Part shown: in pieces, positions 1 to 22,755 of the stretch
Layout: every line of letters starts with the position of its first letter
How positions within the stretch are numbered: position 1 is the first letter of the stretch
From: a virus
IMG/VR virus record: IMGVR_UViG_3300037484_000731
Span: 1 to 64,000 of that record
Reading direction: 5' to 3' (one strand)
DNA length: 64,000 bases
Program-made: the position numbers and the translations under genes
The notes under the pieces: model-generated
Databases searched by the model: none
The model's input: only the letters and a program-made list of their open reading frames with translations
What the model was told of the DNA's origin: nothing

Positions 1-592
1 TCTTTGGCCAGCTAAAGAAAGCTACTGAATCCTGCTCCGCATATGAAGCATTATACGGCCAATCTGGATTTGTTGTCAGAGGATTTTCATCCTTCTGTGC
101 CGTTCCCTTAAACGGGGCTGATGTGTAATTATCCCCGCCGAAGGTAAGTTCCAAATCTTCAGCCGTAATCTGCAATCTCCTGATCCATAGCCTCATTTCA
201 CGCCCACTCTTATTCTTCCCGATAAGAACACAGGAAGGATATACTGCTGCTGGGGCTTCGTGACCCATTATTACTCTGTCCCAATTCGCATCACTGTCGT
301 CAAATCTCCTCTGGGAAATCAGAGCAATCGTCTCAGCCTGAAGCTGTTTCAGTTTGGCTTCAATAGTAAACTCCTGATCAACAATGTCCCTTGCAATTTC
401 AGTCTTCGGAATACCAGTTTTGAAGATAGCATATGTCAGCTTCTGCCTCCATATCTTCTCCGCTTCCAAATATCCAAGACTCTTGAGGCCGTTCCCATCA
501 TGTAAATCGATATACATCGCCGGATCATGCAGGAACATATAGTTAACGTTGTTGCCAAAGTTGACTGTGTTGATATTAAGATTGTTTGCCAT
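1..592 (-). CDS. hypothetical protein, N-terminal 197 aa only (gene continues past window start)
   Basis: Minus-strand frame opens at ATG 592 (GGAGG 8 nt upstream) and stays open to position 1 (MANNLNINTVNFGNN...FFSWPK). Missing from the ORF track because it is truncated. Sits after the glycan island in the late region, so it may be a structural protein. Confidence 0.5.
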   Translation of the reverse strand, partial: MANNLNINTVNFGNNVNYMFLHDPAMYIDLHDGNGLKSLGYLEAEKIWRQKLTYAIFKTGIPKTEIARDIVDQEFTIEAKLKQLQAETIALISQRRFDDSDANWDRVIMGHEAPAAVYPSCVLIGKNKSGREMRLWIRRLQITAEDLELTFGGDNYTSAPFKGTAQKDENPLTTNPDWPYNASYAEQDSVAFFSWPK

Positions 593-908
593 CGTCTTTT
601 CCTCCATTATAGTTTTTAAAGAGCTTCACAAACTCATCCGGTCTTAAAGCTCTATCATCAATGTAAAAATCGGCAACAGGCTTACCCATTACCAATGAAT
701 CATAATTGATGCCAATTTGACCGACTTGACTCATGGTATTAGCCAACTTATCCCAGTGTCTCGCCGTAAAAATAATGATGGTGTGGCCTTCCTTATGTAA
801 TTTATTGACCATAGCTACAACATCTTCATTAATCTTTAAAATATTATAGACTCCGTCCTTGAACTCGGTCTCGCAAATAGTCCCATCAAAATCAAAACAA
901 AGTGTCAT
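576..908 (-). CDS. HAD-superfamily phosphatase (small sugar-phosphate phosphatase type)
   Basis: Motif I CFDFDGT, motif II FTAR, motif III/IV GKPVADFYIDDR. Start trimmed to internal Met (MTLCFDFDG), which gives an ATGA overlap with the upstream gene and an AAGGAG RBS. Confidence 0.6.
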   Translation of the reverse strand: MTLCFDFDGTICETEFKDGVYNILKINEDVVAMVNKLHKEGHTIIIFTARHWDKLANTMSQVGQIGINYDSLVMGKPVADFYIDDRALRPDEFVKLFKNYNGGKDDGKQS

Positions 909-1726
909 CCTCTTAACTCCTTTCTCTTTTGCATTTCGCATTCAAATACCTTTCTGCCTTCTTCCACTCCCAGAGCAGATTCAATATCCCTGATTCCACG
1001 TACCAATTTAAATATTCCTGCTGGTTCAATACTTGATAATTGATCTGATCCCCACATCATTCGATCAAGAGTTACATGACGTTCAATCCACGTTGCACCA
1101 AGAGCTACTGCAGCAAATGTCGTTACAAGACCAAATTCATGTCCGGAATAACCTATATCTTTATTGACGTACATATTCTGTAGCCATTTTATATAATAAA
1201 GATTAAGGTCTTTGATATTTGCTGGATAAGCAGAATTACAGTGCATAACCACGTCCGGATTGCCAACTTTAACTGCATTTATTATTTCATCTTCTGTAGA
1301 CATTCCAGTTGAGATGATCATTTTTTTAAAGTTTCCTCTACACCATTGTAATAAAGATAAATCTGTTAATTTCGCAGAAGGAACTTTTACAATAGAATCT
1401 CCAAACTGTTGTAAAAAGACCACTGAATCCATATCCCACGCAGAAGCAAACCACTTGATCCCCTTCTCCTTACAATATTGATCTATCTGTTCATATTGGT
1501 TGCCATCAAGCTCCAGTTTATATTTATATTCAATATATGAAATAGTCCCCCACGGCGTCACTCTCGGTATATTTTTTTGATGATCCGGTACGCAGACGTC
1601 CGGATTTCTTTTTTGAAATTTTACATAATCTATACCGGCTGCAGCACATACGTCAATCAGCCTCTTCACGATGTTCATATCACCATTATGATTGATTCCT
1701 ATGTCTGCAACAAGTTTAATACTCAT
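905..1726 (-). CDS. NeuB-family nonulosonic-acid (sialic-acid-like) synthase
   Basis: N-terminal IADIGINHNGDMNIVKRLIDVCAAAGIDYVKFQ matches the NeuB/PseI/LegI signature (IAEIGxNHNGs...A.aGAdavKFQ). Start trimmed to MSIKLVADIGINHNG (ATGA overlap with the HNH gene). Confidence 0.7.
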   Translation of the reverse strand: MSIKLVADIGINHNGDMNIVKRLIDVCAAAGIDYVKFQKRNPDVCVPDHQKNIPRVTPWGTISYIEYKYKLELDGNQYEQIDQYCKEKGIKWFASAWDMDSVVFLQQFGDSIVKVPSAKLTDLSLLQWCRGNFKKMIISTGMSTEDEIINAVKVGNPDVVMHCNSAYPANIKDLNLYYIKWLQNMYVNKDIGYSGHEFGLVTTFAAVALGATWIERHVTLDRMMWGSDQLSSIEPAGIFKLVRGIRDIESALGVEEGRKVFECEMQKRKELRG

Positions 1727-2148
1727 AATATTTCTCCCTGATGAATACAATAACCAAAAGCACCAATATGACAATTACAATTAAAACAAAGAACTCGAAA
1801 TCCTTCAGGATAGCCATTTTTCTTAAGCCATTCATAAAACTTCCAACCACCTTGTATATTAATTTCTTTTCTGTGTTTTCGGCCACCACCGTTCACGTGG
1901 TCAATAGTAAGAAAATTAATGTAGTTTTCTCCACAACATTCACATTTACCGCCGTAATATTGTATTACCTCTTGTTTTAATTTAATTCTGTATTTCTTTT
2001 GTGAACTCTTTTTAATATAGGCCATTGATTGTTTACCTTTGTCTGTCTGTGCATATTTCTTACGTGCACGAATACGTACTTGCTTACCATTTTTCGTCTT
2101 CCGATAAATTTTATCGTATTCTTTCTTGGCCTCTTTCCGGTTAGTCAT
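1723..2148 (-). CDS. HNH homing endonuclease, zinc-finger subfamily (paralog 1 of 8)
   Basis: GGKCECCGE...FLTIDHVNGGGRKHR...GFRVLCFNCN...GYCIH; Lys-rich N-terminus. Confidence 0.75.
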   Translation of the reverse strand: MTNRKEAKKEYDKIYRKTKNGKQVRIRARKKYAQTDKGKQSMAYIKKSSQKKYRIKLKQEVIQYYGGKCECCGENYINFLTIDHVNGGGRKHRKEINIQGGWKFYEWLKKNGYPEGFRVLCFNCNCHIGAFGYCIHQGEIL

Positions 2149-2809
2149 TATTACATGCCGTCCTTACGTGAGATTTTTCCAGCAGTACATGTACCCACTG
2201 CCGGTAATCAACAAAGAAATTTATAGTCATGTTATATTTGAGACAGTTTGTATCAAAGAATTGTTTCCATTCAGAAGCAGTTTTGAGATTAATATGCACT
2301 GCACCAAGTCCCCTTTCTTCCCAATTTTTGTCTCGTGCTACTGCATGAGTCGCAATCTGATGATATACGAACCTCTTGGCCACCCTACATTCCTCGGCAA
2401 AGGTCTTTTCTTCAATTTCAACCGGAATATGTTCCATTCCATCTAAATGAGTAATTAGATCAAACTGATTGTCCTTAAACATATTCAAGTTATCAGCACT
2501 GGCCTCAACAATATTGAGGTCTGGTCTATACTTTCGGATCGTCTTAGCTGCGATATCAACACACGTAATTTGCAGCCACGGATATTCTCTCCTGAAGAAA
2601 TCCACCCAAAATCCACGACCGCAGCCAATGTCGAGCAGCGTCACAGATTCTTTAATTGCGGATTTAATGGACTGATGAATTACATCATTTCCTCTGAGGA
2701 AAGTCTTTGGCCTTCCAGACCTCCAGCCATACGTCTTATCCTCCGTATAAAGAAGGTTGTATTTCATCTTTTCCCGCTTTATTAAGATATTCCGTTTGTC
2801 GTCGTCCAT
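2141..2809 (-). CDS. class I SAM-dependent methyltransferase
   Basis: Motif I LLDIGCGRGFW followed by an acidic motif II region. Confidence 0.55.
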   Translation of the reverse strand: MDDDKRNILIKREKMKYNLLYTEDKTYGWRSGRPKTFLRGNDVIHQSIKSAIKESVTLLDIGCGRGFWVDFFRREYPWLQITCVDIAAKTIRKYRPDLNIVEASADNLNMFKDNQFDLITHLDGMEHIPVEIEEKTFAEECRVAKRFVYHQIATHAVARDKNWEERGLGAVHINLKTASEWKQFFDTNCLKYNMTINFFVDYRQWVHVLLEKSHVRTACNND

Positions 2810-3504
2810 TTGACATCCCCTTGTTTTATTCTTCCTTCAACGATCCCAGACAATAAATCCATAATAAAATCATCAGTCTTGAAATTCGGATGCGACATAA
2901 ACAGATTATAGAAGAACTTGGCATTACCATTGAAATCGTGTCCATCTTCCTTCTTGCCAACATTAATGATATTCCCCTGCGATCTGATCTTCTGGGGCAG
3001 GTATCCATCCAGATACTCTTGGTAATTATCATGTACGAATGCCGGATTTTTACTTGCAAAAAAATCAATCCCAGTCATGTAAAGTAATGCTGGCTGCTGA
3101 TCCAAGATGTCCTGTATGATATAATTACCCATGGATGCGCTTTTTAAAGCCTTATTCACTTTCAAAAATACGTCCCTGATCGTGCGAGCGCATATGTATT
3201 TATTAAATTCATTAAGGTCTTCCTGTGAGCTTCCCTTCAAACAGAGCCATTTGACTCCCCGTATCTTCATCTCTTTTATTGGGAAAGGCTTCATTTCCCT
3301 GTAATATTGCCTATTTACATAGGCCACATCGCACCGGCGTCCGTAGTCCTTGTAGTACTTATCCTTATTAAAAGCCCACGAATGGCCGGACTTTACAACA
3401 ATATCATATGAGTCAATTAATTTACCCATGTCACGATCAACCAAATTCGGACAAGCTCCGACAAAGACAACTTTCTTTCCTTTTATAAACTCTTTGAAAC
3501 CCAT
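2782..3504 (-). CDS. DUF115/Maf-like (motility-accessory-factor-like) putative glycan transferase
   Basis: GKKVVFVGACPNL...DIVVKSG resembles the DUF115 core (IIGnGPSL...cN). Confidence 0.4.
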   Translation of the reverse strand: MGFKEFIKGKKVVFVGACPNLVDRDMGKLIDSYDIVVKSGHSWAFNKDKYYKDYGRRCDVAYVNRQYYREMKPFPIKEMKIRGVKWLCLKGSSQEDLNEFNKYICARTIRDVFLKVNKALKSASMGNYIIQDILDQQPALLYMTGIDFFASKNPAFVHDNYQEYLDGYLPQKIRSQGNIINVGKKEDGHDFNGNAKFFYNLFMSHPNFKTDDFIMDLLSGIVEGRIKQGDVKWTTTNGIS

Positions 3505-4139
3505 TATATTTTACTAACCTCCCAAATACCCATCACTGAATAAATATGATCTGGTTTAATTAAATCGTGCTCCCGTATTACCTCTAATGGTGTTCCTAAG
3601 TTAAAAGGTGGTTTTGATAAATCTCTCTTTTCAAGCATTAAGCAAGTGGTGTCCCCATTTATTGGAACATTAAAAGAAGTTGTTACCATGAGATATTTAG
3701 ACCCACTCTTCTTAATATTATCAAGAGCCATTAAGATTTCTTTATTTGTTAAATGAATAAATACACTTCTAATGAACAACATATCTGATTGCGGAGGAAT
3801 TTCATCAACAATATTCATATATTTAAACTCAAAATTTGGATACTTCTTTTTATTACTTTCTATAAGTCTTTCAACTATATCAATACCAAGATATTTAATA
3901 CCAACCCAGTCAATGGTATTTAACCAATAAAAATTACCACACCCACAATCAGTAAATGTTTTAATATTATATCTTTTAAATATGTCTGGCATTTGTTGTT
4001 TAAGCTTAACATACTTAGACAAACTTTTCATTTTCCCCCAGAGACCAATATTATTAAGTTTTACATGTCTATTATAAAGCCTGTTCCATTGTTCCCGCAA
4101 AGACAACCCCTTTACTTCCTGTTCCCATTGTTTATCCAT
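3504..4139 (-). CDS. class I SAM-dependent methyltransferase
   Basis: FTDCGCGNFYW glycine-rich motif I; about 210 aa. Confidence 0.5.
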   Translation of the reverse strand: MDKQWEQEVKGLSLREQWNRLYNRHVKLNNIGLWGKMKSLSKYVKLKQQMPDIFKRYNIKTFTDCGCGNFYWLNTIDWVGIKYLGIDIVERLIESNKKKYPNFEFKYMNIVDEIPPQSDMLFIRSVFIHLTNKEILMALDNIKKSGSKYLMVTTSFNVPINGDTTCLMLEKRDLSKPPFNLGTPLEVIREHDLIKPDHIYSVMGIWEVSKI

Positions 4140-4158
4140 TTTAATTTCTCCTATTTAA

Positions 4159-5628
4159 TTATAACTTTTCTATACTCGTCTTTCTTTCCATAGGATCAAG
4201 TTTGTAAACCTCAGTATCCTTATAATATGAATCCCCAACTACGTGTGTAGTTGATATTTCCTCAAAGATCGCTCCTTTGTCATCAGTCCAAAACTCGTGC
4301 GCCCTATACCGGTCAACAAGGATATCATCACCTTTCTTTAATTCATGTATGTCATCTTCCAGTTTAACAGTTAGGTTGCCAAATAAAACCCTGAAAGTCT
4401 CTTCCTTGCTATGATGAACATGATTGAGATATTTCTGATTTGGCAACATAATTATATATTTCTTACAATACTGCCTATTTATCACGTCCACAATTACTGC
4501 ACCATATTCCTTGAACTTATCAAATCCGTAATGATGGCAAAGCTCTGCAGTACACTTACTATTTAGAACGATACCAGCTTCGGCCATCATTCCTTTTGCC
4601 TGATGAAAGTACAATCTGACAAGTCTTATTTTATCCTTACTGTCATCATGATCGAGGATTGGATCATTTTTCTTATAATCTACACTGGCACTCACATGAC
4701 TTCTATATGCGCCATATTCTTCCGCAAGGAGTTGGTTTCTATGATTCGGGAATGCGAAGAATATATCTCCATGCTTGATGTCCGAACCCTTTGATACGTC
4801 CTTGGACGCCCAAACACCCCGTTTTAAAGCCCTGAGGCTCTCCCGTTCCTCTTCCGGAATGTTTTTAAGGTCGTCCCCACAATATTGCATGGCCATATCA
4901 ATAAATTCAACATAAATTTTAGCTTCATCCGGTATGATTGAATAACTATTCCCCTGATCAAGTTTGATGTGCCGTTCTATGATCCCAGCCCCTTTGCCTA
5001 CCGCTATTCGGGCAGCATCCATCGTTCCGGCTGATGAATGATCCGAGAACCCAATAGGTACATCATATCGCCTCTTCATCTTGCTTATAACGTCGAGGTT
5101 CATATATCTTGGCGGAGCGGGATAAATACCACAGCAGTGCAACAACGAAAAATTACTCCCCTTATGCTTGAGGAAATTATACAAGTTGTCGATTTCATCC
5201 CAGTTGAGCCCACCCGTGGATGCTATGATTAACTTATCCCAATCCGATATCCTATCCAAGAGTCCCCACTCATTGGCGCAGCAGCTTGCAACCTTGACAA
5301 AATCAACATTACACTGCTTTATGAAATCGACTGAGTTCTCATCAAAAGGAGTAATCCCCAACATGAAACCCCTTTCCTTAATGTAAGAACAGAGCTTGAG
5401 AAAATCCTCGTTCTGCATTCTGGTATCCATAAACCTCTTGACATTAGCGACGTTGTAATCCGTCTTAAAGTCCGGATGAATAAACGTGTCAATGTCTCTG
5501 CGCTGCAACTTGATCGCAAAGTAAAACTTGTCATACTCCTTCTTTATAGGAGCGAGAGCATCTACTATCCGACATGCCTTCTCAAGGCTGCCGTCATGAT
5601 TATTGGCCATTTCCCATACTATAAGCAT
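4159..5628 (-). CDS. NeuB-family nonulosonic-acid synthase paralog with C-terminal extension
   Basis: N-terminus VWEMANNHDGSLEKACRIVDALAP...AIKLQ resembles the NeuB N-terminal signature; 489 aa, so an extra C-terminal domain. Confidence 0.55.
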   Translation of the reverse strand: MLIVWEMANNHDGSLEKACRIVDALAPIKKEYDKFYFAIKLQRRDIDTFIHPDFKTDYNVANVKRFMDTRMQNEDFLKLCSYIKERGFMLGITPFDENSVDFIKQCNVDFVKVASCCANEWGLLDRISDWDKLIIASTGGLNWDEIDNLYNFLKHKGSNFSLLHCCGIYPAPPRYMNLDVISKMKRRYDVPIGFSDHSSAGTMDAARIAVGKGAGIIERHIKLDQGNSYSIIPDEAKIYVEFIDMAMQYCGDDLKNIPEEERESLRALKRGVWASKDVSKGSDIKHGDIFFAFPNHRNQLLAEEYGAYRSHVSASVDYKKNDPILDHDDSKDKIRLVRLYFHQAKGMMAEAGIVLNSKCTAELCHHYGFDKFKEYGAVIVDVINRQYCKKYIIMLPNQKYLNHVHHSKEETFRVLFGNLTVKLEDDIHELKKGDDILVDRYRAHEFWTDDKGAIFEEISTTHVVGDSYYKDTEVYKLDPMERKTSIEKL

Positions 5629-6704
5629 GATATCACCTCATCAAATTTTTCTTCTGGAACTGTATATCTTACAACCGTAACTGGGCTATTATTATCAAGA
5701 CCCAAGTTGTTATGGTGAATGTAAATGTTAATGACTCCCTTTCTCGGTAGAATACCATACACTGAGTGACAAGTATTCTTCGGTTTTCCGTCCTTGAAAT
5801 GTACAATCTGCTCGTGAAAGTATCTGCCCACAATATCGAAATTTACTCCATCGACTCCACGTACCAGCCTGATGCAGCAGTTCCCATCAATATCAAAGTA
5901 TGGGATTAATCCCACAAAAATCTTTTTATATCTGAAGATTGATGGTGTATAATAGTTGTCTCTGTCTGCCTGATATCCATTAATGTTAATAAGTCTGAAT
6001 TTGTCCCAGTGTATGAGGTCTTTGGATGTTGAGTATTGAATGTATCTGAATCCAACTGCAACGTTCGCCCTCACATATAGAAAATATTGATCAGTATTCT
6101 CATCGTAGACGCAACAGACTTGACCGTCAAATTCCGATCCCTTGCCAAAATTCTTTATAGCATCAATAAAACCCTCATTTTTCGTGGTAACAATAGGTTT
6201 CTTTCCTATCTGCTCCCAGTGCAGACCTGTTTCACTCTTAAAAAGGTAAAGTCCTCTTACATGCTCCAACATCTTCTTATTAGATAAGAGTCTCTTATGT
6301 TCGGACAAGTCAAAAACTTCTCTCGTACAAGGCCACTGAAATTTTTCTTCATATACTTTCTTGAAAACATCATAACTCGTTATTCCATGGAATGCCCTGT
6401 CATGCTTCCAGTTATCTACACCGCCTATACTATACAAAGTTCTGTTCTTTCCATAGAAGGGAGTAAAGTTGTGTGTCGCTCCTGATGCTTTTAGTACAAC
6501 GGTCTTGCTCTGATCGAAGGTCACACCATCTCTGCTATCAGTACAGATAGTATTAAAATGTTTAACCCAGCGATTACTGTATAATCTAACTATTCCGTCC
6601 GGACACTTAATGATGGAATAATAAATCGCCTTTCTTGCATCCGATTCATATATCTGGTTTTCATATTTGAGTTTCAATTCCTTCATATCACCCTCTTTAT
6701 CCAT
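5619..6704 (-). CDS. hypothetical protein (361 aa) inside glycan island
   Basis: Long ORF in the operon frame with no motif I can name; could be a glycosidase- or transferase-like beta-rich protein. Confidence 0.4.
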   Translation of the reverse strand: MDKEGDMKELKLKYENQIYESDARKAIYYSIIKCPDGIVRLYSNRWVKHFNTICTDSRDGVTFDQSKTVVLKASGATHNFTPFYGKNRTLYSIGGVDNWKHDRAFHGITSYDVFKKVYEEKFQWPCTREVFDLSEHKRLLSNKKMLEHVRGLYLFKSETGLHWEQIGKKPIVTTKNEGFIDAIKNFGKGSEFDGQVCCVYDENTDQYFLYVRANVAVGFRYIQYSTSKDLIHWDKFRLININGYQADRDNYYTPSIFRYKKIFVGLIPYFDIDGNCCIRLVRGVDGVNFDIVGRYFHEQIVHFKDGKPKNTCHSVYGILPRKGVINIYIHHNNLGLDNNSPVTVVRYTVPEEKFDEVISCL

Positions 6705-7225
6705 GATGTATCTCTGAATACTGCATCTGGTTTCAGTAGCCGATCAACTACTAACTTTACCCTATTGTAGTCATGACCCCCGATCCATCCATTAATTCTA
6801 ACTTTTGGCAACCATATTCTAACATCATGGTCTACTACATCGGGCTGATGATTTCCATCAATGTACACAAAATCAAATACTTTCTTCTCAACAAAGAGCT
6901 TGACGGCATTGTCACTTGTTTCCCTCAAGTGTTGTACATTTTCAAATTTGTCCAGTATGTCAGTCTTAAACTGCTTATATACGTCCTCCATCGGATATTT
7001 GTATGATGATGTGTCGCTATCATCATATCCATTCTTATATGGATCGACTGAAATTACATGATTAAAATTTTGAGCAAAAACCCTTGTTGAATCACCAACA
7101 TAAGAACCAATTTCTACCATAATCATCCCCTTTGTCGGAGCGGGAGACTTAAGGTTTATATAATCAACCATATCTTTAAGTCCAATGATCGCATATGTAG
7201 CGTTTCTGATTGATATCTTATTCAT
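6683..7225 (-). CDS. SAM-dependent methyltransferase (TylF/Methyltransf_24-like)
   Basis: MVEIGSYVGDSTRVFAQNF motif I. Start trimmed to MNKISIRN (GGTGGAG RBS) to remove a 125-nt overlap with the GT8 gene. Confidence 0.45.
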   Translation of the reverse strand: MNKISIRNATYAIIGLKDMVDYINLKSPAPTKGMIMVEIGSYVGDSTRVFAQNFNHVISVDPYKNGYDDSDTSSYKYPMEDVYKQFKTDILDKFENVQHLRETSDNAVKLFVEKKVFDFVYIDGNHQPDVVDHDVRIWLPKVRINGWIGGHDYNRVKLVVDRLLKPDAVFRDTSWIKRVI

Positions 7226-7946
7226 GATTATATCTCCACCATTCACGCTCAAGCATTGCATATTGTTCCTCTCGAACATTGGTCTTCTTCTGCCACGGCT
7301 TCTCGCCCACATAATGTAAAATCCGCATGGTTTGCAGCACATGCTTGAATTTGTTCGTATAGAGCATTCTCTTTTCTACATTAAAGACCTTGTCGAGGTA
7401 CATCATACGATTTCTGAAGTAATGATTGATTACCGTCTGATCCGGCATCTTATGTCCAGACCTCGCAATCCTGAGCATCTCAACATAAACCTGTTCATTA
7501 AGGAATTGCTGATTGACAACAAACACCCCAGAATTTATATCACGTCTCATCATATCATGTAACGGATCATAACCCTTGACTGCTGCAAATCCCGCAGTCG
7601 TTGCAAAAAGCTGCTTAATATCTCCTAATATGAGAGTATCCGAATCAATAAATACGAGCCGTTCATATCCCTTCATATTGAATATATCAAGCTTGTAGTA
7701 AGTACATCTTAATTTTGGGGCTGTCTTCTCAAAATCAGTCCCCGCATATCTTTTCTTATCAATTGGCTGCCATGTGATGTCTTTATATATTTGAGTCAGT
7801 TTTCCCTTTGTCTCCGGCAGCACCCCGTCATCAAGTATCACAACCGGAAGATCAAACCAAGGATTATTCTTGAGTAATGACCTTATCATTGCTTTAAAGC
7901 CAATTACAAACTCTTCGTTCAGCATCGTTACAAGTGCCGTTTTCAT
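7218..7946 (-). CDS. family GT8 retaining glycosyltransferase
   Basis: DxD motif LVFIDSDTLIL and C-terminal HYVGEKPW (GT8 HYxGxxKPW signature). Confidence 0.7.
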   Translation of the reverse strand: MKTALVTMLNEEFVIGFKAMIRSLLKNNPWFDLPVVILDDGVLPETKGKLTQIYKDITWQPIDKKRYAGTDFEKTAPKLRCTYYKLDIFNMKGYERLVFIDSDTLILGDIKQLFATTAGFAAVKGYDPLHDMMRRDINSGVFVVNQQFLNEQVYVEMLRIARSGHKMPDQTVINHYFRNRMMYLDKVFNVEKRMLYTNKFKHVLQTMRILHYVGEKPWQKKTNVREEQYAMLEREWWRYNHE

Positions 7947-8593
7947 TTTTTTTGCTCCTCTAAATGTTCAAAATCTTTGATGGTATCAACATCAACCATC
8001 TCACCTATTGGATAGAAAACTGTTTTCTTATTCCATAGATTTTTATTTAGTTTTTTTATTTCACCGGCATATGCAATAAAGATAGCATGACTTGCCTTGA
8101 ACATCCGTGGGTAATCCTGTCTTCTGTAAAGATCGTGTTTTATAATTTGTCTCCCAGTACAATCCTTCATACTATCAAAGAACCATCTATACGGATGGAT
8201 TTCATCATTTGTCTGTTCCTCTCTGCAGAGAAGTGACTTCCCTTTCACTCTATCGAAGAATTTATGTGCTGCAATGATTTGCTTCCATGTTCTGGTCGGA
8301 TAAGTAAGATAGAGCATTGTGATTTTATCAGTATCTGGTATATTGTAATGATTAATTACATCCAAAAGAACTGATTTAGTATGCGCCGTATCTGTACAAA
8401 GCTCTGCTCTCCTTATGTGAATATGAAATCCTTTGGTCAAAGCAACATGACAGATCGTCATATCATCCGTCGTCACAATTACTCGACTTACCAGTGACGA
8501 CGGAATCATATTAGCCGTATAAGAAAAAAGTTTTCTGTTCTTAAGCGGTAAACCTTTACTACCCTGACGAGCCGGTATTATTATCCAATTCAT
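7943..8593 (-). CDS. acylneuraminate (nonulosonate) cytidylyltransferase, NeuA/CTP_transf_3 family
   Basis: N-terminus NWIIIPARQGSKGLPLKN matches the CMP-sugar synthetase signature (AIIPARggSKgipgKN). Confidence 0.7.
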   Translation of the reverse strand: MNWIIIPARQGSKGLPLKNRKLFSYTANMIPSSLVSRVIVTTDDMTICHVALTKGFHIHIRRAELCTDTAHTKSVLLDVINHYNIPDTDKITMLYLTYPTRTWKQIIAAHKFFDRVKGKSLLCREEQTNDEIHPYRWFFDSMKDCTGRQIIKHDLYRRQDYPRMFKASHAIFIAYAGEIKKLNKNLWNKKTVFYPIGEMVDVDTIKDFEHLEEQKK

Positions 8594-9024
8594 ATGAGTC
8601 CCTCTTTCTTGAAGAGTTCCTCGATGTTGACGATCGCCCAGTTCACATCAAACATATCAATATGAATATGAGCACCAAAGCTAAATCCAACATCGGCATA
8701 GAAACCAAGCTGGTCTCCTTCCAGTACTTTCTGTCCTTTATAGACCATATTCTCCCTGAGATGACAGTACCTCACGTGGTAAAGTCCATTCTCAAGCCGA
8801 TGATCTATAATCACCACATTACCGAGAGAATGCTTACGATCAGTCCACCTCAACGACTCCTGATAGTTATCCATGTCATACGACACGTTCCCCTCTGCAA
8901 TCGCAAAAATGCTATCACTCTCTCTACTGATTAAATCCAATCCTCCATGGAACTCCTCTTTTCCTTTAAGGATTCGTTTCCCAAAGTGGCTGGTTATTAC
9001 CGCATTGTCAACTGGCAGCCTCAT
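8590..9024 (-). CDS. M23/LytM-family metallopeptidase
   Basis: HFGKR...FHGGLDL (HxxxD) and GAHIHIDMF (HxH). Confidence 0.6.
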   Translation of the reverse strand: MRLPVDNAVITSHFGKRILKGKEEFHGGLDLISRESDSIFAIAEGNVSYDMDNYQESLRWTDRKHSLGNVVIIDHRLENGLYHVRYCHLRENMVYKGQKVLEGDQLGFYADVGFSFGAHIHIDMFDVNWAIVNIEELFKKEGLI

Positions 9025-9844
9025 GTAACACCTCCTCTATTTTTTGTACCCTAAAAAAGGGTATTACAGTATTAGGATTCAGATTAATGATCCGATCCTT
9101 ATAAAAATCAAAATGCTTGAACATCTTGATATTAGTCGCTGCTCGTTCACCTCGGTATCCCTTATCATTGCCATATCTCACTTTACCATCTGAATCATAG
9201 AAGTGAAGATCGACAGCATTTTTATTTAGGTCATATCCGAGTAAATAGATTGGGTTAGCATCCATCGCTATAGCCAGACTGATTGCTGCCATACCAGTTA
9301 GTCTCGCTCCCCAGATTCCCCTATTAAATTTGGCCTGTACTCGGTCATTGTTTACATAAAAGGGGATCGCATTTGGATTATCTTTGTGATACTGCGTCCT
9401 GAAGGAACAAAAAATCATACCTTTATACGATTGAAAAAACTTTCTTGCTTCATTATCATTCTTATCGAGAAAATTTGCATCGAGGAATATGCAAGCGTCG
9501 GCTTTCGGATAATAGATCACCGAGTGATTGATTGCGATAGTAAAATCATTATCCAGACGTGAAAAATCAAACCCTCTCAGACTTGATCCCCCGCCGATAA
9601 TGAAACACCGCTTTCCTTTAAGCATTCCATCTATGTTGTGCTTGTCACGTGTGAGACCACTGAATTTGTCAAATAGTCTCTGGGTATCTTCATCTGGGAT
9701 ATAATCACCTGATTCAATCAGTTCTCTGCACATATTAAGGGGAGCTATAACCCAGTCCCCCTTCTTTATCTTCTGAATACGATCAGGGTAGACCACATCT
9801 TTAATCAAAGCTTTACCCGTGTATTGTACATTACCTACTATCAC
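9008..9844 (-). CDS. DUF115/Maf-like putative nonulosonate/glycan transferase
   Basis: GKRCFIIGGGSSLRGFDFSRL...FTIAINHS matches the DUF115 core. Confidence 0.5.
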   Translation of the reverse strand: MIVGNVQYTGKALIKDVVYPDRIQKIKKGDWVIAPLNMCRELIESGDYIPDEDTQRLFDKFSGLTRDKHNIDGMLKGKRCFIIGGGSSLRGFDFSRLDNDFTIAINHSVIYYPKADACIFLDANFLDKNDNEARKFFQSYKGMIFCSFRTQYHKDNPNAIPFYVNNDRVQAKFNRGIWGARLTGMAAISLAIAMDANPIYLLGYDLNKNAVDLHFYDSDGKVRYGNDKGYRGERAATNIKMFKHFDFYKDRIINLNPNTVIPFFRVQKIEEVLHEAAS

Positions 9845-10323
9845 GATAATAACCCCACATCCCTGTAAAATTCGACTCGTATTTCGGCTCTCGCCACGAA
9901 GAACCGGTCTTCTCTTTCGAGATAATCCATGGGAATTGACGTATTGTCTGGTAATATACCATCAACAATACCCCCCAAAGTCTCGTCAAACTTAATCGCA
10001 GTCCATATGTCATCAGAAAAATCAAGTATCCCAACTCTGTAAGTATCCGAATTATCATCACCCATTATAGCAATATTTAATTCCATTGACGTTGTTGCAA
10101 ACTGGATGAGTACTGGAAATACATGACGTTCAAATTCTTTCCTTGACATATCATCAACAGCCCGCTCTATCCGTGCATCTGAAGGTACGACGTTAAAGAA
10201 CGGAAATTTATCCTTTTCCATCAGTTCATATGGGTCTTCTGCCACATAAGCGGATTGAAAAGCATAACTTAAGTCCGGATGATTCTTTAACTGATTGAGT
10301 AATGCTGTTACTGTCCTTTTCAT
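9841..10323 (-). CDS. hypothetical protein, probable head/neck structural component
   Basis: ORF with a 4-nt overlap to its neighbours, between capsid genes and the glycan island. Confidence 0.4.
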   Translation of the reverse strand: MKRTVTALLNQLKNHPDLSYAFQSAYVAEDPYELMEKDKFPFFNVVPSDARIERAVDDMSRKEFERHVFPVLIQFATTSMELNIAIMGDDNSDTYRVGILDFSDDIWTAIKFDETLGGIVDGILPDNTSIPMDYLEREDRFFVARAEIRVEFYRDVGLLS

Positions 10324-10883
10324 TTGTAACCTGCCTCCAGAGATTTACGTAACCAACTATACGTAAAATTCGCATGCTTAACACCACTATTAAAGGTCTT
10401 AGCATCGAGCTTGAGGAAATTATTGAGCCGAATAGCCGTGTACTTGTAAATTGGCCTTGGCTTCTGCACCCGCTTCCCCTTGCCTTTGGTCTGATTTCGT
10501 GTTCCGAAATGGAAGACCTTGGAGTAGTCATACCGATTGGGATCATTAGCTGCGACAGCATTTGAATTTAACTGCCATGTGAGAGATTTAGATTTATATA
10601 ATTTAATTGCATTCTTACTGGCTGCATCTTTCATCACCCCCGTCTTGTAACCAATACCGGAGACGTGATGTTTTCTTATCTTCCAGATAAGGTAATTGAC
10701 GCTAAGCCTCGGCCAGAGTTTGTGAGTATCTCGTGTCGGATGAAACTCGTAATCAACGAACTCGACGATCTTGGGAGTAACAGCAACCCATAGTGGTGTT
10801 GCGTCCCCCGATCCTCTTCTGATCTCTTCTAACCACTTAATAACCGCATCTTTGTTCTTGATATCAAGTTTAAATCCTTCCAT
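10320..10883 (-). CDS. hypothetical protein, probable structural
   Basis: Tiled ORF in the late operon; basic C-terminus. Confidence 0.4.
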   Translation of the reverse strand: MEGFKLDIKNKDAVIKWLEEIRRGSGDATPLWVAVTPKIVEFVDYEFHPTRDTHKLWPRLSVNYLIWKIRKHHVSGIGYKTGVMKDAASKNAIKLYKSKSLTWQLNSNAVAANDPNRYDYSKVFHFGTRNQTKGKGKRVQKPRPIYKYTAIRLNNFLKLDAKTFNSGVKHANFTYSWLRKSLEAGYK

Positions 10884-10884
10884 A

Positions 10885-11373
10885 TCAATTCTTCACGCTG
10901 TCATCGACATAAGTCTGACCATAGAACGCCTCGCCCTCATTAATAAATCCACTAACTCCCTTCCTGACGTAGAATTTTTTATTTGATCCACCATCAAGCG
11001 AAGGATAATCCTTCGGCGTATAGTCTACTGCTCCTGCAACGAGCTTGAGTGTTCCATCAAGCGTTTTATCTCTAAATTTTTCATACTCCTTTTTGAAGTA
11101 TTGTACATCAGTTAATTCATCAACCTTTCTACTGACGCCATAATACGCAACAAGACAGAGTTCAACTGCCTTGAGTGTAGCGAGTAAATTAAGAAGGTCT
11201 GAGGTTGCACCAATTCCATCCAGCGTCACTCCATCTATAATTGGACTAAGATCGACTTTGATTATCTTCTCTGCTTGAGAGATTCTATCAAGGACGACAT
11301 CCGGAATGACATCTTCTGTTTTGATCAATTTTCTGTCTGAATTTCTGACTTGAGCTTCCGTACAGTATGCCAT
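10885..11373 (-). CDS. hypothetical protein, probable head completion/connector
   Basis: First gene after the major capsid gene; strong AAGGAG RBS. Confidence 0.4.
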   Translation of the reverse strand: MAYCTEAQVRNSDRKLIKTEDVIPDVVLDRISQAEKIIKVDLSPIIDGVTLDGIGATSDLLNLLATLKAVELCLVAYYGVSRKVDELTDVQYFKKEYEKFRDKTLDGTLKLVAGAVDYTPKDYPSLDGGSNKKFYVRKGVSGFINEGEAFYGQTYVDDSVKN

Positions 11374-12422: not shown

Positions 12423-12842
12423 TTAAGTGGCGTAAGTGCCAATGTAATGCTTGCAAATTTCTACTGGAATGACTTGCCCAGCAACCCAATTCTGAGTAGC
12501 CACACCCAATATCCAAGCCCCAGCTTGCGAAGTATGTTTTGCACCCACACCCGCAGCACCTGCTGTGACTCTATCACCTCTTGATCCCGAACCAGTCATT
12601 TCAACATAAACTATACCGGAATACTTCATTTCGATCGGGTCATGTTCTTCGTAAGTAGCTTTTCCGTTTTCGGAAGCGTCACCACTTACACCCTCGAAGA
12701 AGTAGTTCTGGTTAGTAGCATGAATGACCTCGTCAGGATCAGTACCTGCTTTGAGGATTCTGTACGGACTTACAGCAGCACCCGCTTTCGCTGGAGCAAC
12801 TTTTACATCACGTTCCTCAGTTCTACCTGCATTAAAAGCCAT
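12423..12842 (-). CDS. small Gly/Ala-rich head protein (decoration-like)
   Basis: 139 aa immediately upstream of the capsid gene. Confidence 0.3.
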   Translation of the reverse strand: MAFNAGRTEERDVKVAPAKAGAAVSPYRILKAGTDPDEVIHATNQNYFFEGVSGDASENGKATYEEHDPIEMKYSGIVYVEMTGSGSRGDRVTAGAAGVGAKHTSQAGAWILGVATQNWVAGQVIPVEICKHYIGTYAT

Positions 12843-22565: not shown

Positions 22566-22755
22566 CCTTCCTCTCTATAAACAATGGACTCTGAATTTGA
22601 GTCGGCTGCAATATCTCATTATAATAATCACTGTTAATGTTGAATGTATTCCGTTCATTAAATTCCTCTCTTTTGCCCTTGTTCCACTGATTTATTGGCC
22701 TAAAATATCCTACTACTCGACTAAATACCTCTACTGGAACTCTTCTTTCTGGCAT
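22525..22755 (-). CDS. hypothetical small protein
   Basis: Start overlaps the TerL stop. Confidence 0.3.
   Translation of the reverse strand: MPERRVPVEVFSRVVGYFRPINQWNKGKREEFNERNTFNINSDYYNEILQPTQIQSPLFIERKDEVITQNDVLPER

What the first reader, a model, noticed from the sequence alone, without database searches (positions are those of the whole stretch)
576..9844. Phage-borne nonulosonic-acid (sialic-acid-like) glycan synthesis and transfer island next to the head genes
Eleven co-oriented, overlapping genes directly follow the capsid/connector genes. They encode two NeuB-family PEP-condensing synthases, a NeuA-type CMP-sugar synthetase, a HAD phosphatase, two DUF115/Maf-like proteins, a GT8 glycosyltransferase (DxD plus HYVGEKPW), three SAM methyltransferases, an unknown 361-aa protein and an M23 peptidase. 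The DUF115 family includes the candidate nonulosonate transferases of flagellin glycosylation islands. This reads like a flagellin-glycosylation-type island captured by a virus. Absent are the nucleotide-sugar dehydratase and aminotransferase steps, so precursors would have to come from the host. One hypothesis is O-glycosylation of virion proteins with a methylated nonulosonate, given the position inside the late operon with a further structural-looking gene downstream. The alternative is remodelling of host surface or flagellar glycans during infection, as superinfection exclusion or receptor masking.
Basis: partly seen in the sequence, partly recalled or inferred. Interest (0 to 1): 0.85.

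Follow-up and report, generated by a model that had tools for sequence, protein, structure and literature searches.

The report
Phage cassette for sialic-acid-like virion sugar
A family of tailed phages carries, between its head and tail genes, a variable gene cassette that appears to make a sialic-acid-like sugar (probably Kdn) from ordinary metabolites and most likely attaches it to serine/threonine-rich tips of the phage's own tail and head proteins, which has not been described for any phage.

Summary
The island is real. Thirteen co-oriented, overlapping minus-strand ORFs (576-9844) lie between three small connector-position genes after the capsid gene and the candidate major tail gene. 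Two NeuB synthases, a NeuA-type CMP-synthetase, a small HAD phosphatase, GT8, three methyltransferases and M23 are confirmed.

Corrections:
- The two "DUF115" proteins are a GT42/Cst-II-like transferase and a GT29-fold sialyltransferase-like protein.
- The 361-aa unknown is a five-bladed beta-propeller (GH43/GH130-like).
- One ORF is a homing HNH endonuclease.
- NeuB2 carries a C-terminal D-lyxose/D-mannose-isomerase cupin.

In 4 of 4 bacterial loci, NeuB-cupin follows a CMP-synthetase::HAD fusion. NeuB1+HAD(+CMP-synthetase) recurs in hundreds of viral contigs. NeuB1's nearest cellular relatives are mostly Streptomyces, a genus that makes Kdn polymers. This points to a self-contained, phosphorylated-intermediate Kdn-type pathway, not a Pse/Leg flagellin island short of precursors.

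Across relatives the cassette ranges from absent, to four genes, to 12-16 genes with extra methyl- or sulfotransferases. Cassette-bearing phages have Ser/Thr-rich C-terminal tails (51% S/T) on the tail candidate and the head-decoration candidate. The single cassette-less relative does not. Virion O-glycosylation is therefore the best reading (about 0.5). It is untested biochemically.

The parts
1..592 (-). Candidate major tail (tube) protein, N-terminal 197 codons. The C-terminus lies just outside the window. This is the proposed glycan acceptor.
   Evidence: ATG at 592 matches the orthologue N-termini (MANNLNINT...). In relatives it is a ~205-aa gene followed by a ~220-aa gene and a tape-measure gene. 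No family hit. The window copy ends at the conserved ...FFSWPK. Close relatives continue with (L/V/T/I)GYTPNT.
576..941 (-). Small capless HAD phosphatase (110-121 aa; alternative start at 908). Proposed nonulosonate-9-phosphate phosphatase.
   Evidence: Hydrolase_3 22.6 bits (cut-off 20.9) and DFDGT motif. TIGR01689 capsule phosphatase 1.1e-11. PDB 9iqw 'capsule biosynthesis protein' 1.2e-14. A homologue is present in 55 of 80 viral NeuB1 loci and lies directly downstream of NeuB1 in 26 of them. It is fused to the CMP-synthetase in 4 of 4 bacterial loci.
905..1726 (-). NeuB1: SAF-less NeuB-family PEP-condensing synthase (273 aa). Proposed Kdn-9-P-type synthase.
   Evidence: PF03102 2.7e-66. 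TIGR03569 215 bits and PseI 154 bits, both below cut-off. It ends at profile position 273 of 329, so it has no SAF domain. Catalytic motifs KFQKR, STGM, GYSGHE and ERH are invariant. It is ~52% identical to a Streptomyces-dominated bacterial clade. A gene caller on other contigs also gives 273 aa.
1723..2148 (-). HNH homing endonuclease, inserted between the methyltransferase and NeuB1. Not part of the glycan function.
   Evidence: phrog_2255 HNH endonuclease 1.3e-10. The alignment to relative L001 jumps from window 2141 to 1720. No hit in L002 or L004.
2141..2809 (-). SAM methyltransferase 1 (class I).
   Evidence: Methyltransf_25 2e-11 and Methyltransf_11 8.4e-11. Weak hit to the Pse-associated methylase TIGR03587, 2e-5.
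2782..3504 (-). GT29-fold sialyltransferase-like protein (240 aa).
   Evidence: 44 of 45 family members hit PF00777 (best 3.5e-8; the window protein itself 0.012). The family profile hits ST6Gal1 at 3.3e-4 and ST3Gal1 at 1.8e-3, at the N-terminal region corresponding to sialylmotif L. AF2 model pLDDT 95.3. The top 28 PDB fold matches are all GT29 sialyltransferases, E down to 2e-6. Viral GT29-annotated matches appear in BFVD.
3504..4139 (-). SAM methyltransferase 2 (weak in the window copy).
   Evidence: Methyltransf_25 2.6e-4, below cut-off. The L004 orthologue hits Methyltransf_25.
4159..5628 (-). NeuB2: NeuB TIM barrel + SAF domain + C-terminal D-lyxose/D-mannose-isomerase-type cupin (489 aa).
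   Evidence: PF03102 7.7e-41 and Cupin_2 8.2e-7. PDB 3g8r 3e-64 over residues 2-313. The C-terminal profile hits lyxose isomerases 2y0o (2.1e-15) and 7nzo (3.1e-13). 20 of 20 members hit PF07385; the window domain scores 22.4 bits against a cut-off of 20.8. H405, K408, E409, E410 and H444 are invariant and H403 is nearly invariant.
5619..6704 (-). Five-bladed beta-propeller carbohydrate-active protein (361 aa). Hydrolase, phosphorylase or GH130/GT108-like transferase; role unknown.
6683..7225 (-). SAM methyltransferase 3 (Methyltransf_24 type). The likely start is at 7225, not 7342.
   Evidence: PF13578 2.2e-15. Orthologues are 177-195 aa.
7218..7946 (-). GT8 retaining hexosyltransferase.
   Evidence: PF01501 1.9e-24. 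DSD and HYVGEKPW motifs are visible in the translation.
7943..8593 (-). NeuA-type CMP-nonulosonate synthetase.
   Evidence: PF02348 30.2 bits (cut-off 22.6). PseF model 3.3e-17, below cut-off. PDB CMP-Neu5Ac synthetases 6ifd (6.5e-16) and 1eyr (1.2e-13) match over the full length. The IPARxGSKG motif is present.
8590..9024 (-). M23 peptidase. An accessory passenger, not a conserved cassette member.
   Evidence: PF01551 9.6e-15. Found only in the window phage and in the contig represented by L001/L002/L091. Absent from L004, L088, L089 and L090.
9008..9844 (-). GT42/Cst-II-like nonulosonate transferase with a ~75-aa N-terminal extension. It is the first gene in every cassette whose upstream boundary was sampled. 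Proposed to attach the sugar to the acceptor.
   Evidence: phrog_4603 'alpha-2,3-sialyltransferase' 1.5e-16. PDB Cst-II 1ro7 1.9e-4 over residues 78-264. PF01973 only 19 bits against 34.6. It is the only transferase in the four-gene minimal cassette and the only window-island homologue detected in the small cassettes.
9841..11373 (-). Three small ORFs (160, 187 and 162 aa) in the position of head-tail connector genes.
   Evidence: No family hits. Conserved in order in all relatives, including the cassette-less one.
11447..12397 (-). Major capsid protein.
   Evidence: phrog_1005 major head protein 1.8e-32.
12423..12842 (-). Candidate head decoration/cement protein ending in ...IGTYAT. Possible second acceptor.
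   Evidence: Phage_cement PF22758 0.0047. phrog_673 5.2e-12, which PHROGs labels 'head scaffolding protein', so the decoration role rests mainly on the weak cement hit. C-terminal tails containing S/T occur in cassette-bearing relatives. The cassette-less relative ends ...HFKAA.

Best explanation
The region is one version of a hypervariable glycan cassette. It sits at a fixed site in the late morphogenesis operon of a clade of siphovirus-like phages, between the last connector-position gene and the candidate major tail gene.

Core pathway (inferred):
1. A sugar phosphate of manno configuration, most simply Man-6-P, is condensed with PEP by a NeuB-family synthase. The sugar phosphate may be supplied from Fru-6-P by the lyxose/mannose-isomerase-type cupin fused to NeuB2.
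2. The small HAD phosphatase removes the 9-phosphate.
3. The NeuA-type enzyme makes the CMP-activated sugar, most likely CMP-Kdn or a close derivative.
4. The GT42/Cst-II-like protein transfers it to the acceptor.

Larger versions such as this window add a second synthase, a GT29-fold sialyltransferase-like enzyme, a GT8 hexosyltransferase, a beta-propeller enzyme and three methyltransferases. One relative adds sulfotransferases. The product would then be a short, tailored (O-methylated) oligosaccharide.

All the enzymes are predicted soluble and no export machinery is encoded, so the acceptor is cytoplasmic. The most likely acceptors are Ser/Thr residues in the short variable C-terminal tails of the major tail protein and of the head decoration protein. 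That would give a sugar-coated virion.

Shown here: gene content, family and fold assignments, synteny, selection, gene fusions and neighbourhoods, and the correlation with the tails. Inferred: the substrate (Kdn rather than another nonulosonate), the order of steps, the acceptor, and the biological benefit (shielding, stability or adsorption).
For: Pathway:
- Both synthases are NeuB family, with catalytic motifs conserved.
- The CMP-synthetase matches CMP-Neu5Ac synthetases.
- The HAD gene lies directly downstream of NeuB1 here, in a cyanomyovirus, and in 26 of the 55 viral loci that have a HAD homologue. 43 of the 80 best viral NeuB1 loci also have a CMP-synthetase homologue.
- In 4 of 4 bacterial loci, NeuB-SAF-cupin is preceded by a CMP-synthetase::HAD fusion whose HAD part is 33-43% identical to the phage HAD.
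- The cupin is a D-lyxose/D-mannose-isomerase family member with its metal ligands conserved.
- Among the 80 best bacterial and archaeal species-genome matches, about 60 are Streptomyces at ~52% identity. In one Streptomyces genome the gene sits beside a polysialyltransferase-like gene, a GT2 and DUF6716. Streptomyces walls carry a Kdn-Gal teichulosonic acid that is often methylated (PMC11481543).
- Man-6-P + PEP -> Kdn-9-P is an established route (PMC6200933).

Virion target:
- The cassette is translationally packed into the structural operon.
- No island protein has a transmembrane-like segment (maximum 19-residue Kyte-Doolittle score 1.40).
- The site is the same in every cassette-bearing relative, with content from 0 through 4 to about 16 genes.
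- All island genes are under purifying selection.
- 15 distinct cassette-bearing tail proteins have C-terminal tails that are 51% Ser/Thr, against 11.5% in the protein body. The one cassette-less relative ends VEQQ. The head-decoration candidate shows the same pattern.
- Tail sequence types track cassette types.
Against: - There is no biochemical or mass-spectrometric evidence.
- The host is unknown.
- The tail correlation rests on a single cassette-less genome, and the sequences are phylogenetically related.
- The window copy of the tail gene is cut before its C-terminus.
- Neither the 'major tail' nor the 'decoration' assignment has a significant family hit.
- GT42 and GT29 enzymes normally sialylate sugars, not protein side chains.
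- The residue aligned with the Cst-II catalytic His188 is Glu in the 278-aa protein.
- Two synthases in one cassette are not explained by a single Kdn product.
- Known D-lyxose isomerases act on free sugars, whereas the HAD link implies phosphorylated ones.
- Soluble cytoplasmic enzymes could equally act on host lipid-linked or flagellin precursors.
Confidence: 0.5

Rival explanations
1. The same pathway remodels host glycans rather than the virion. Late in infection the soluble enzymes would add the nonulosonate and extra sugars to host lipid-linked LOS, O-antigen or wall-polymer precursors, or to flagellin. The host then exports these, masking receptors. That would block superinfection or stop progeny being lost on debris.
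For: Cst-II-type GT42 enzymes act on LOS at the cytoplasmic face of the membrane. p278 matches Cst-II and p240 has the GT29 fold; both families normally use sugar acceptors. The closest cellular NeuB1 relatives sit in a wall-polymer-like locus. Gain and loss of tailoring genes resembles the diversification of surface-antigen loci.
Against: No flippase, polymerase, initiating transferase, ligase or any membrane protein is encoded. The cassette lies in the late structural operon, not near lysogeny or early genes. No integrase was found among the ORFs tested. Surface remodelling shortly before lysis gives little time for export. This reading does not explain the Ser/Thr-rich tails that co-occur with the cassette.
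Confidence: 0.25
2. One reading: a captured flagellin-glycosylation (Pse/Leg, Maf-type) island that depends on host-made UDP- or GDP-diacetamido-sugar precursors.
For: The synthases give partial hits to PseI (154 and 135 bits). The CMP-synthetase's best NCBIfam hit is PseF (3.3e-17). One methyltransferase weakly hits the Pse-associated methylase. p278 has a faint PF01973 signal.
Against: All of these hits are far below the equivalog cut-offs, and the NeuB/LegI model scores higher than PseI for both synthases. DUF115 membership fails for both transferases. The HAD phosphatase linkage and the isomerase fusion have no role in Pse/Leg pathways. The nearest cellular relatives of NeuB1 are largely from Streptomyces, a genus that makes Kdn polymers. 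Divergence of the cassette is as deep as that of the neighbouring structural genes.
Confidence: 0.07
3. The product is neither a virion nor a host-surface glycan. The CMP-sugar pathway would modify phage DNA, or make a soluble metabolite or decoy.
For: The phage also encodes a PurZ-like enzyme, which suggests unusual DNA chemistry. Three methyltransferases are present.
Against: The methyltransferases are generic class I or Methyltransf_24 types, not DNA methylase families. The genes are in the late structural operon, far from the replication module at 38-53 kb. No precedent exists for nonulosonate on DNA. Two sialyltransferase-like enzymes and a GT8 point to glycoconjugate assembly.
Confidence: 0.05
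4. Artefact: a cellular fragment mis-assembled into a viral contig, or decaying cargo with no function.
For: NeuB genes in viromes have been suspected of being cellular contamination (PMC3877843, listed).
Against: The same cassette with the same phage flanks occurs in independent assemblies from JGI, ENA and Logan samples. Reading frames are intact and overlapping. pN is 0.18-0.35 with saturated synonymous sites. GC content is uniform across the region.
Confidence: 0.02

Closest known systems
Mycobacteriophage virion glycosylation (Che8, Corndog, Myrna; Freeman et al. 2023, as cited in PMC11256854 and PMC12363180)
   Same: Phage-encoded soluble glycosyltransferases modify the phage's own structural proteins in the cytoplasm. 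From my recollection of that paper (not held in the library), the glycans sit on the C-termini of capsid and tail-tube subunits. That matches the Ser/Thr-rich C-terminal tails seen here.
   Different: Those phages encode glycosyltransferases, placed near the right end of the genome (PMC11256854). I know of no report that they encode sugar biosynthesis. Here a de novo nonulosonate pathway (synthase, phosphatase, CMP-activation), sialyltransferase-like enzymes and tailoring enzymes are embedded between head and tail genes. The phage lineage is unrelated and has 38% GC. Nothing here has been shown experimentally.
Kdn / Neu5Ac-9-phosphate pathway (Kdn-9-P synthase, HAD phosphatase, CMP-Kdn synthetase; Bacteroides thetaiotaomicron, Prymnesium parvum, vertebrate NANS/NANP/CMAS)
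   Same: A NeuB-family synthase, a HAD phosphatase and a NeuA-type cytidylyltransferase form a linked set. No dehydratase or aminotransferase is needed. Man-6-P + PEP is an established entry (PMC6200933).
   Different: The phage HAD belongs to the small TIGR01689/9iqw-like subfamily. NeuB1 lacks the SAF domain. NeuB2 carries a lyxose-isomerase-type cupin not described in any characterised pathway. The substrates are untested.
Campylobacter Cst-II (GT42) and animal/viral GT29 sialyltransferases (ST3Gal, ST6Gal, ST8Sia; poxvirus and herpesvirus sialyltransferases)
   Same: p278 aligns with Cst-II over about 190 residues. p240 has the GT29 fold and aligns at the sialylmotif-L region. Both families use CMP-nonulosonate donors.
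   Different: Both proteins are much diverged and fall below Pfam cut-offs individually. The Cst-II catalytic His188 aligns with Glu in p278. p240 is a minimal 240-aa soluble version with no membrane anchor. The proposed acceptor (a protein Ser/Thr, at least for p278 in the minimal cassette) is not the usual one.
Flagellin nonulosonate glycosylation islands (PseB-I/LegI, Maf/DUF115)
   Same: Cytoplasmic O-linked addition of a nonulosonate to surface-exposed Ser/Thr of a self-assembling filament protein. Accessory methyltransferases are present.
   Different: The Pse/Leg biosynthetic steps are absent and not needed. DUF115 membership is not met. The synthases fall outside the PseI and LegI equivalogs.
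Chlorovirus and giant-virus encoded capsid glycosylation
   Same: Virus-encoded soluble glycosyltransferases and sugar methyltransferases build a tailored glycan on the capsid protein independently of host machinery (my own knowledge).
   Different: Those are eukaryotic viruses with different enzymes and sugars. To my knowledge no nonulosonate has been reported on those capsids.
Seroconverting phage O-antigen modification (Gtr, Oac)
   Same: Phage genes that change a glycan.
   Different: Those are membrane proteins expressed from prophages next to the attachment site. Here there are no membrane proteins and the setting is a late-operon one.

Membership tests
NeuB family (PF03102) PEP-condensing synthases | Profile match above the gathering score, with conserved catalytic motifs (KFQ, STGM, xSxH, ExH) | tested here: met
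   NeuB1 223.9 bits and NeuB2 140.6 bits against a cut-off of 22.1. The motifs are invariant in the NeuB1 alignment and conserved in 120 NeuB2 homologues.
N-acetylneuraminate/legionaminate synthase equivalog (TIGR03569) | Score at or above the curated cut-off of 399.65 bits | tested here: not met
   215.2 bits (NeuB1) and 149.9 bits (NeuB2).
Pseudaminic acid synthase PseI (TIGR03586) | Score at or above the curated cut-off of 340.25 bits | tested here: not met
   154.3 and 135.0 bits.
Kdn-9-phosphate synthase type pathway | The synthase is genetically linked to a HAD phosphatase and a CMP-synthetase, with no amino-sugar steps | tested here: met
   NeuB1-HAD adjacency here and in 26 viral loci; CMP-synthetase homologue in 43 of 80. 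CMP-synthetase::HAD fusion next to NeuB-cupin in 4 of 4 bacterial loci.
Kdn-9-phosphate synthase type pathway | The enzyme uses Man-6-P (or mannose) + PEP | not testable with these tools
   Needs an enzyme assay. No characterised Kdn-9-P synthase sequence was available for a phylogeny.
CMP-nonulosonate synthetase (PF02348, NeuA type) | Profile match above cut-off, and similarity to solved CMP-Neu5Ac synthetases | tested here: met
   30.2 bits against 22.6. 6ifd 6.5e-16 and 1eyr 1.2e-13 over the full length. The PseF equivalog is not met (62.9 against 205.7 bits).
DUF115 / Maf (PF01973) | Profile match at or above 34.6 bits | tested here: not met
   p278 scores 19.0 bits, E 1.3e-3. p240 has no hit, and only 1 of 45 family members hits, at E 0.058.
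GT42 (Cst-I/Cst-II) sialyltransferases | Sequence similarity across the catalytic domain | tested here: met
   p278 residues 78-264 align with Cst-II residues 2-220, E 1.9e-4 against the whole PDB. phrog_4603 1.5e-16.
GT42 (Cst-I/Cst-II) sialyltransferases | Catalytic base His188, and Tyr156/Tyr162 of Cst-II | tested here: inconclusive
   In the phmmer alignment His188 aligns with Glu, and the two Tyr positions are not conserved. The alignment is weak in that region.
GT29 sialyltransferases | PF00777 match and the sialylmotif-L region | tested here: inconclusive
   The window protein scores 15.5 bits against a cut-off of 23. However, 44 of 45 family members hit (best 3.5e-8), and the family profile aligns to the N-terminal region of ST6Gal1/ST3Gal1 corresponding to sialylmotif L.
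GT29 sialyltransferases | GT-A variant 2 fold shared with solved GT29 enzymes | tested here: met
   Model pLDDT 95.3. The top 28 PDB matches are all GT29, probability 1.00, TM about 0.5.
GT8 glycosyltransferases | PF01501 above cut-off, and a DxD motif | tested here: met
   87.1 bits against 24.3. DSD and HYVGEKPW are present.
D-lyxose/D-mannose isomerase (PF07385) | Profile match, and the His-His-Glu-His metal site | tested here: met
   The window C-terminal domain scores 22.4 bits against 20.8, and 20 of 20 homologues hit. PDB 2y0o 2.1e-15. H405, E410 and H444 are invariant and H403 is nearly invariant. Activity and the sugar versus sugar-phosphate preference are untested.
Five-bladed beta-propeller glycosidase/phosphorylase superfamily (GH43, GH130, GT108 and relatives) | Fold | tested here: met
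Phage virion glycosylation (mycobacteriophage type) | Phage-encoded glycosyltransferases plus a glycan on virion subunits, shown by mass spectrometry | not testable with these tools
   Only indirect evidence: the operon position, soluble enzymes, and Ser/Thr-rich C-terminal tails that co-occur with the cassette.
Seroconverting phage glycan modification (Gtr/Oac type) | Membrane-embedded transferases or flippase, and a lysogeny-linked location | tested here: not met
   No hydrophobic segment reaches the transmembrane threshold. The cassette is inside the late structural operon.

The most novel reading that the evidence does not exclude
A clade of uncultivated siphophages coats its tail tube and head decoration protein with a methylated (in some relatives sulfated) Kdn-type sialic-acid-like sugar. 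The sugar is O-linked to short, variable Ser/Thr-rich C-terminal tails. It is made de novo by a modular cassette that has grown from four genes to about sixteen.

This would be the first 'sialylated' phage particle. It would also imply that the NeuB1-HAD-CMP-synthetase trio seen in hundreds of viral contigs marks a widespread, unrecognised practice of virion (or host) nonulosonylation. As a by-product it exposes an uncharacterised bacterial two-gene, four-domain route to a CMP-nonulosonate that uses a lyxose-isomerase-type domain.
Probability: 0.4. Interest if true: 0.9.

Novelty: new variant of a known kind. Interest (0 to 1): 0.75.

Why it matters
Phage particles have long been regarded as unglycosylated. 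The only documented exception known to me is a set of mycobacteriophages that add host-derived sugars with one or two transferases.

A phage lineage that carries its own complete pathway for a sialic-acid-family sugar would differ in three ways:
- The pathway sits inside the morphogenesis operon.
- It has matching acceptor tails on structural proteins.
- Its tailoring genes turn over the way surface-antigen loci do.

That would mean virion surfaces can be under glycan-level diversifying selection, for example to evade host or predator recognition, to change stability, or to alter adhesion to mucus or polysaccharide.

It gives directly testable predictions:
- mass shifts of 250 Da plus 14-Da steps on two named proteins;
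- a four-gene minimal cassette suitable for reconstitution.

It supplies compact soluble enzymes for glyco-engineering: a 240-aa GT29-fold enzyme and a four-domain CMP-sugar route. It also suggests that the several hundred NeuB-type matches in viral metagenome contigs are genuine viral functions rather than contamination.

Tried and rejected
- Nucleotide search of the first 16 kb against 50,697 GenBank phage records found nothing. Protein searches found only distant capsid relatives (24-27% identity) and only three records with a NeuB gene.
- DUF115/Maf assignment for the two transferases was rejected on Pfam scores and family-wide scans. The two proteins are not similar to each other.
- A recent duplication of the synthases was rejected: they are 27% identical.
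- A sialidase/BNR reading of the 361-aa protein, which I suspected from Asp-box-like motifs, was rejected. The model is a five-bladed GH43/GH130-type propeller, not a six-bladed sialidase.
- The M23 peptidase and the HNH gene are not conserved cassette members.
- The promoter/terminator scan gave nothing convincing inside the island. Promoter-like sites were fewer than in shuffled sequence. The terminator-like hits are weak stems inside coding sequence.
- No tRNAs were found, so they give no host clue. The host remains unknown.
- Literature searches for phage nonulosonate pathways, NeuB-cupin fusions or phage sialyltransferases found no relevant paper. Freeman et al. 2023 is not held.
- Attempts to fetch the rest of this phage's contig, to read its tail-protein C-terminus, returned only short contigs.
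- PHROG and Pfam searches gave no hits for the three connector-position proteins, the tail candidate or the ~220-aa gene after it.

Full report
**What is there**

The window is a phage genome fragment with essentially all genes on the minus strand. The landmarks are:
- small and large terminase at 24148-24771 and 22755-24155;
- a portal/MuF fusion at 19799-22246;
- the major capsid protein at 11447-12397;
- DNA polymerase at 42024-44984;
- primase-helicase at 45937-48408.

Between 576 and 9844 lie 13 minus-strand ORFs. They overlap by 1-37 nt, with one 19-nt gap. The same tight packing continues into the three small connector-position ORFs (9841-11373). Only a 73-nt gap then separates these from the capsid gene. 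Downstream, the packing continues into a gene that starts at 592 and runs off the window.

In relatives, that downstream gene is ~205 aa. It is followed by a ~220-aa gene, a tape-measure gene and a beta-helix protein. This is the classical siphovirus order, with the island inserted between the connector genes and the major tail gene.

**Gene by gene**

- two NeuB-family synthases;
- a NeuA-type CMP-synthetase, whose best solved relatives are CMP-Neu5Ac synthetases (6.5e-16);
- a small HAD phosphatase (DFDGT motif; PDB 9iqw 'capsule biosynthesis protein', 1.2e-14);
- GT8;
- three class I / Methyltransf_24 methyltransferases;
- an M23 peptidase.

1. ORF 1723-2148 is an HNH endonuclease (phrog_2255, 1.3e-10). 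It is missing from the relatives whose cassettes were compared. The alignment to L001 skips exactly this ORF.

2. The 278-aa protein is GT42/Cst-II-like (phrog_4603, 1.5e-16; Cst-II, 1.9e-4). It fails the DUF115 cut-off.

3. The 240-aa protein is not DUF115.
   - 44 of 45 family members hit GT29 (PF00777).
   - The family profile aligns to the sialylmotif-L region of ST6Gal1 and ST3Gal1.
   - A pLDDT-95 model has only GT29 sialyltransferases as its top 28 PDB matches.
   - BFVD also holds GT29-annotated proteins from uncultured phages and giant viruses.

5. NeuB2 is a three-part protein: TIM barrel, SAF domain and a C-terminal cupin.
   - The profile of the cupin hits D-lyxose isomerases (2y0o, 2.1e-15; 7nzo, 3.1e-13).
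   - It passes PF07385.
   - The His-His-Glu-His metal site is conserved.

**Which pathway**

Neither synthase reaches the curated NeuB/LegI or PseI cut-offs. They are 27% identical, so they are old paralogues. Four lines of evidence point to a Kdn/Neu-9-phosphate-type route rather than a Pse/Leg route.

1. NeuB1 lacks the SAF domain and is followed directly by the HAD gene.
   - The same pair occurs in a cyanomyovirus.
   - Among the 80 best of at least 498 IMG/VR matches, 55 have a HAD homologue. In 26 it lies within 35 nt downstream of NeuB1. 43 have a CMP-synthetase homologue.

2. NeuB-SAF-cupin is a widespread bacterial protein, with 1331 hits.
   - In all four bacterial loci examined it is preceded by a 338-355-aa protein.
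   - The N-terminal part of that protein is a CMP-synthetase.
   - Its C-terminal part is 33-43% identical to the phage HAD.
   - These fusions tie isomerase, synthase, phosphatase and cytidylyltransferase into one pathway.

3. The nearest cellular relatives of NeuB1 (~52% identity) are mostly Streptomyces.
   - In one Streptomyces genome the gene sits with a polysialyltransferase-like gene, a GT2 and DUF6716.
   - Streptomyces walls carry a Kdn-galactose teichulosonic acid that is often methylated (PMC11481543).
   - SAF-less NeuBs of environmental bacteria have no assigned function in the literature (PMC8208679).

4. Man-6-P + PEP -> Kdn-9-P is an established reaction (PMC6200933). A lyxose/mannose-type isomerase would supply the manno-configured substrate from a ketose.

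I therefore infer this route: Fru-6-P/Man-6-P + PEP -> nonulosonate-9-P -> nonulosonate -> CMP-nonulosonate. Kdn is the most economical product. The route is inferred, not shown. The need for two synthases, and the sugar versus sugar-phosphate preference of the cupin, remain open.

**The cassette in its phage family**

Independent assemblies from JGI, ENA and Logan carry the same structural genes with a cassette at the same site. The content varies:

| Cassette | Content | Example |
|---|---|---|
| None | 90-nt gap | IMGVR_UViG_3300025104_000015 (L184) |
| Transferase only | a p278-like transferase is the only window-island homologue | L186, L188, L195, L204 |
| Minimal | GT42-like, CMP-synthetase, NeuB1, HAD | L178 |
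| Intermediate | adds GT8 and Methyltransf_24, with or without the GT29-like gene | L174, L194, L196 |
| Full | as in the window | window, L002, L004, L088, L089 |
| Full plus sulfation | adds APS kinase, two sulfotransferases and a second GT8 | L090 |

Between the window and L002 or L004, synonymous sites are saturated (pS 0.64-0.99). pN is 0.18-0.35 for every island gene, similar to the adjacent connector genes. The cassette is therefore old, functional and modular. It is not a recent capture.

**The target**

No island protein has a transmembrane-like segment. No flippase, polymerase, initiating transferase or ligase is encoded. The acceptor must therefore be available in the cytoplasm.

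The tail candidate is conserved up to ...NIAFW(A/S)W(P/A)K. It then carries a short hypervariable tail:
- In 15 distinct cassette-bearing sequences these tails (LGYTPNT, ETATSGT, TGTSSGDLTF, SFSSTS, ESASS and others) are 51% Ser/Thr. The body of the protein is 11.5% Ser/Thr.
- The single cassette-less relative ends VEQQ.
- Tail types track cassette types.

The 139-aa head-decoration candidate behaves the same way. The window copy ends ...IGTYAT. Others end ...HTSS...DASS or ...AGS. The cassette-less copy ends ...HFKAA.

The window's own tail gene is cut exactly at ...FFSWPK. Mycobacteriophages are reported to glycosylate capsid proteins with phage-encoded transferases (PMC11256854, PMC12363180). 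I recall that those glycans sit on C-termini of capsid and tail-tube subunits, but that paper is not held.

In the minimal cassette p278 is the only transferase. It therefore probably links the sugar directly to the acceptor. The GT8, the propeller, the GT29-like enzyme and the methyltransferases would extend and tailor the glycan in the larger versions.

**Caveats and rivals**

- There is only one cassette-less genome, and the sequences are related.
- The structural roles of the two acceptor candidates rest on gene order and weak hits.
- GT42 and GT29 enzymes normally sialylate sugars. Cytoplasmic modification of host lipid-linked or flagellin precursors, followed by host export, therefore remains a serious alternative (about 0.25).
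- A Pse/Leg flagellin-type island, a DNA or metabolite product, and an assembly artefact are each unlikely, for the reasons given under the rival explanations.

**Novelty**

- GenBank phages almost lack NeuB genes: three records in 50,697.
- IMG/VR holds at least 498 NeuB1-type matches.
- UniProt carries auto-annotated GT29, NeuB and MptE-like proteins from uncultured phages.
- The parts are therefore in databases, but I found no paper that interprets them.
- I rate this a new variant of a known kind (virus-encoded virion glycosylation), with a high-value testable prediction.

**Other observations in the window**

- A short PurA/PurZ-type adenylosuccinate synthetase (51628-52668), suggesting a possible 2-aminoadenine genome.
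- An ADP-ribosyltransferase domain at the N-terminus of the 745-aa head-module protein.
- A pectate-lyase-fold protein inside the head module.
- Several HNH/EndoVII genes.
- An HTH-resolvase next to an MT-A70 methyltransferase.

Noticed in passing
window 51628-52668 (-): A 346-aa short PurA/PurZ-type adenylosuccinate synthetase. It matches phrog_1211 (2.6e-68) and PF00709 (4e-44). The best PDB matches are archaeal short PurA and phage PurZ structures (6fm1 2.8e-41, 7vf6, 7odx). This suggests the phage may replace adenine with 2-aminoadenine (a Z-genome). DatZ and MazZ partners were not found among the ORFs tested, and an MT-A70 adenine methyltransferase is also present.
   Followed up: partly
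window 12854-15091 (-): A 745-aa head-module protein. Its N-terminal part matches the ADP-ribosyltransferase exoenzyme domain (PF03496, 8.9e-6, above cut-off). Its C-terminal ~400 aa are homologous to a 406-aa protein of relatives that lack the N-terminal part. It may be a virion-delivered toxin or effector fusion.
   Followed up: no
window 17786-19372 (-): A 528-aa pectate-lyase/beta-helix protein (PF12708, 2.1e-18; faint hit to the endosialidase N-terminal extension). It lies inside the head module between the portal and capsid genes, which is an odd place for a depolymerase-like protein.
   Followed up: no
window 1723-2148, 15078-15470, 57006-57761 (-): Three HNH/endonuclease VII-type genes scattered through the genome. 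The first is inserted inside the glycan cassette and is absent from relatives, consistent with homing endonuclease mobility.
   Followed up: partly
window 40542-41698 (-): A 205-aa HTH + serine resolvase (IS607-TnpA-like architecture), immediately followed by an MT-A70 DNA methyltransferase (PF05063, 4.2e-30).
   Followed up: no
L005, L171, L172, L173 (bacterial loci): An uncharacterised two-gene, four-domain bacterial operon: [CMP-synthetase::HAD phosphatase][NeuB-SAF-lyxose-isomerase cupin]. It was found in 4 of 4 contexts examined (one is Xanthocytophaga agilis; three are metagenome-assembled contigs). Neighbours include sulfotransferases, a Wzi-like protein and glycosyltransferases. The NeuB-cupin protein family has more than 1300 members.
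   Followed up: partly
L091-L170 (IMG/VR contigs): At least 498 viral-contig stretches encode a SAF-less NeuB1-type synthase at 52-66% identity. The contigs are 9-300 kb and include several labelled giant-virus MAGs. The NeuB1-HAD-CMP-synthetase trio recurs without the rest of the island.
   Followed up: partly
L090 4298-8283: A relative's cassette carries an APS kinase, two Sulfotransfer_2 genes and a second GT8. This implies a sulfated variant of the glycan.
   Followed up: no
L020 4888-10843 (Streptomyces sp. E-08): The Streptomyces NeuB1-type gene sits with a polysialyltransferase-like gene (PF07388), a GT2 and DUF6716. This is a candidate teichulosonic-acid (Kdn polymer) locus.
   Followed up: partly
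L186 3111-4646: In phages with the smallest cassette, the p278-like transferase is a 511-aa protein, about twice the usual length. It is followed by one 219-aa gene. No synthase is present, so the donor sugar would have to come from the host.
   Followed up: no
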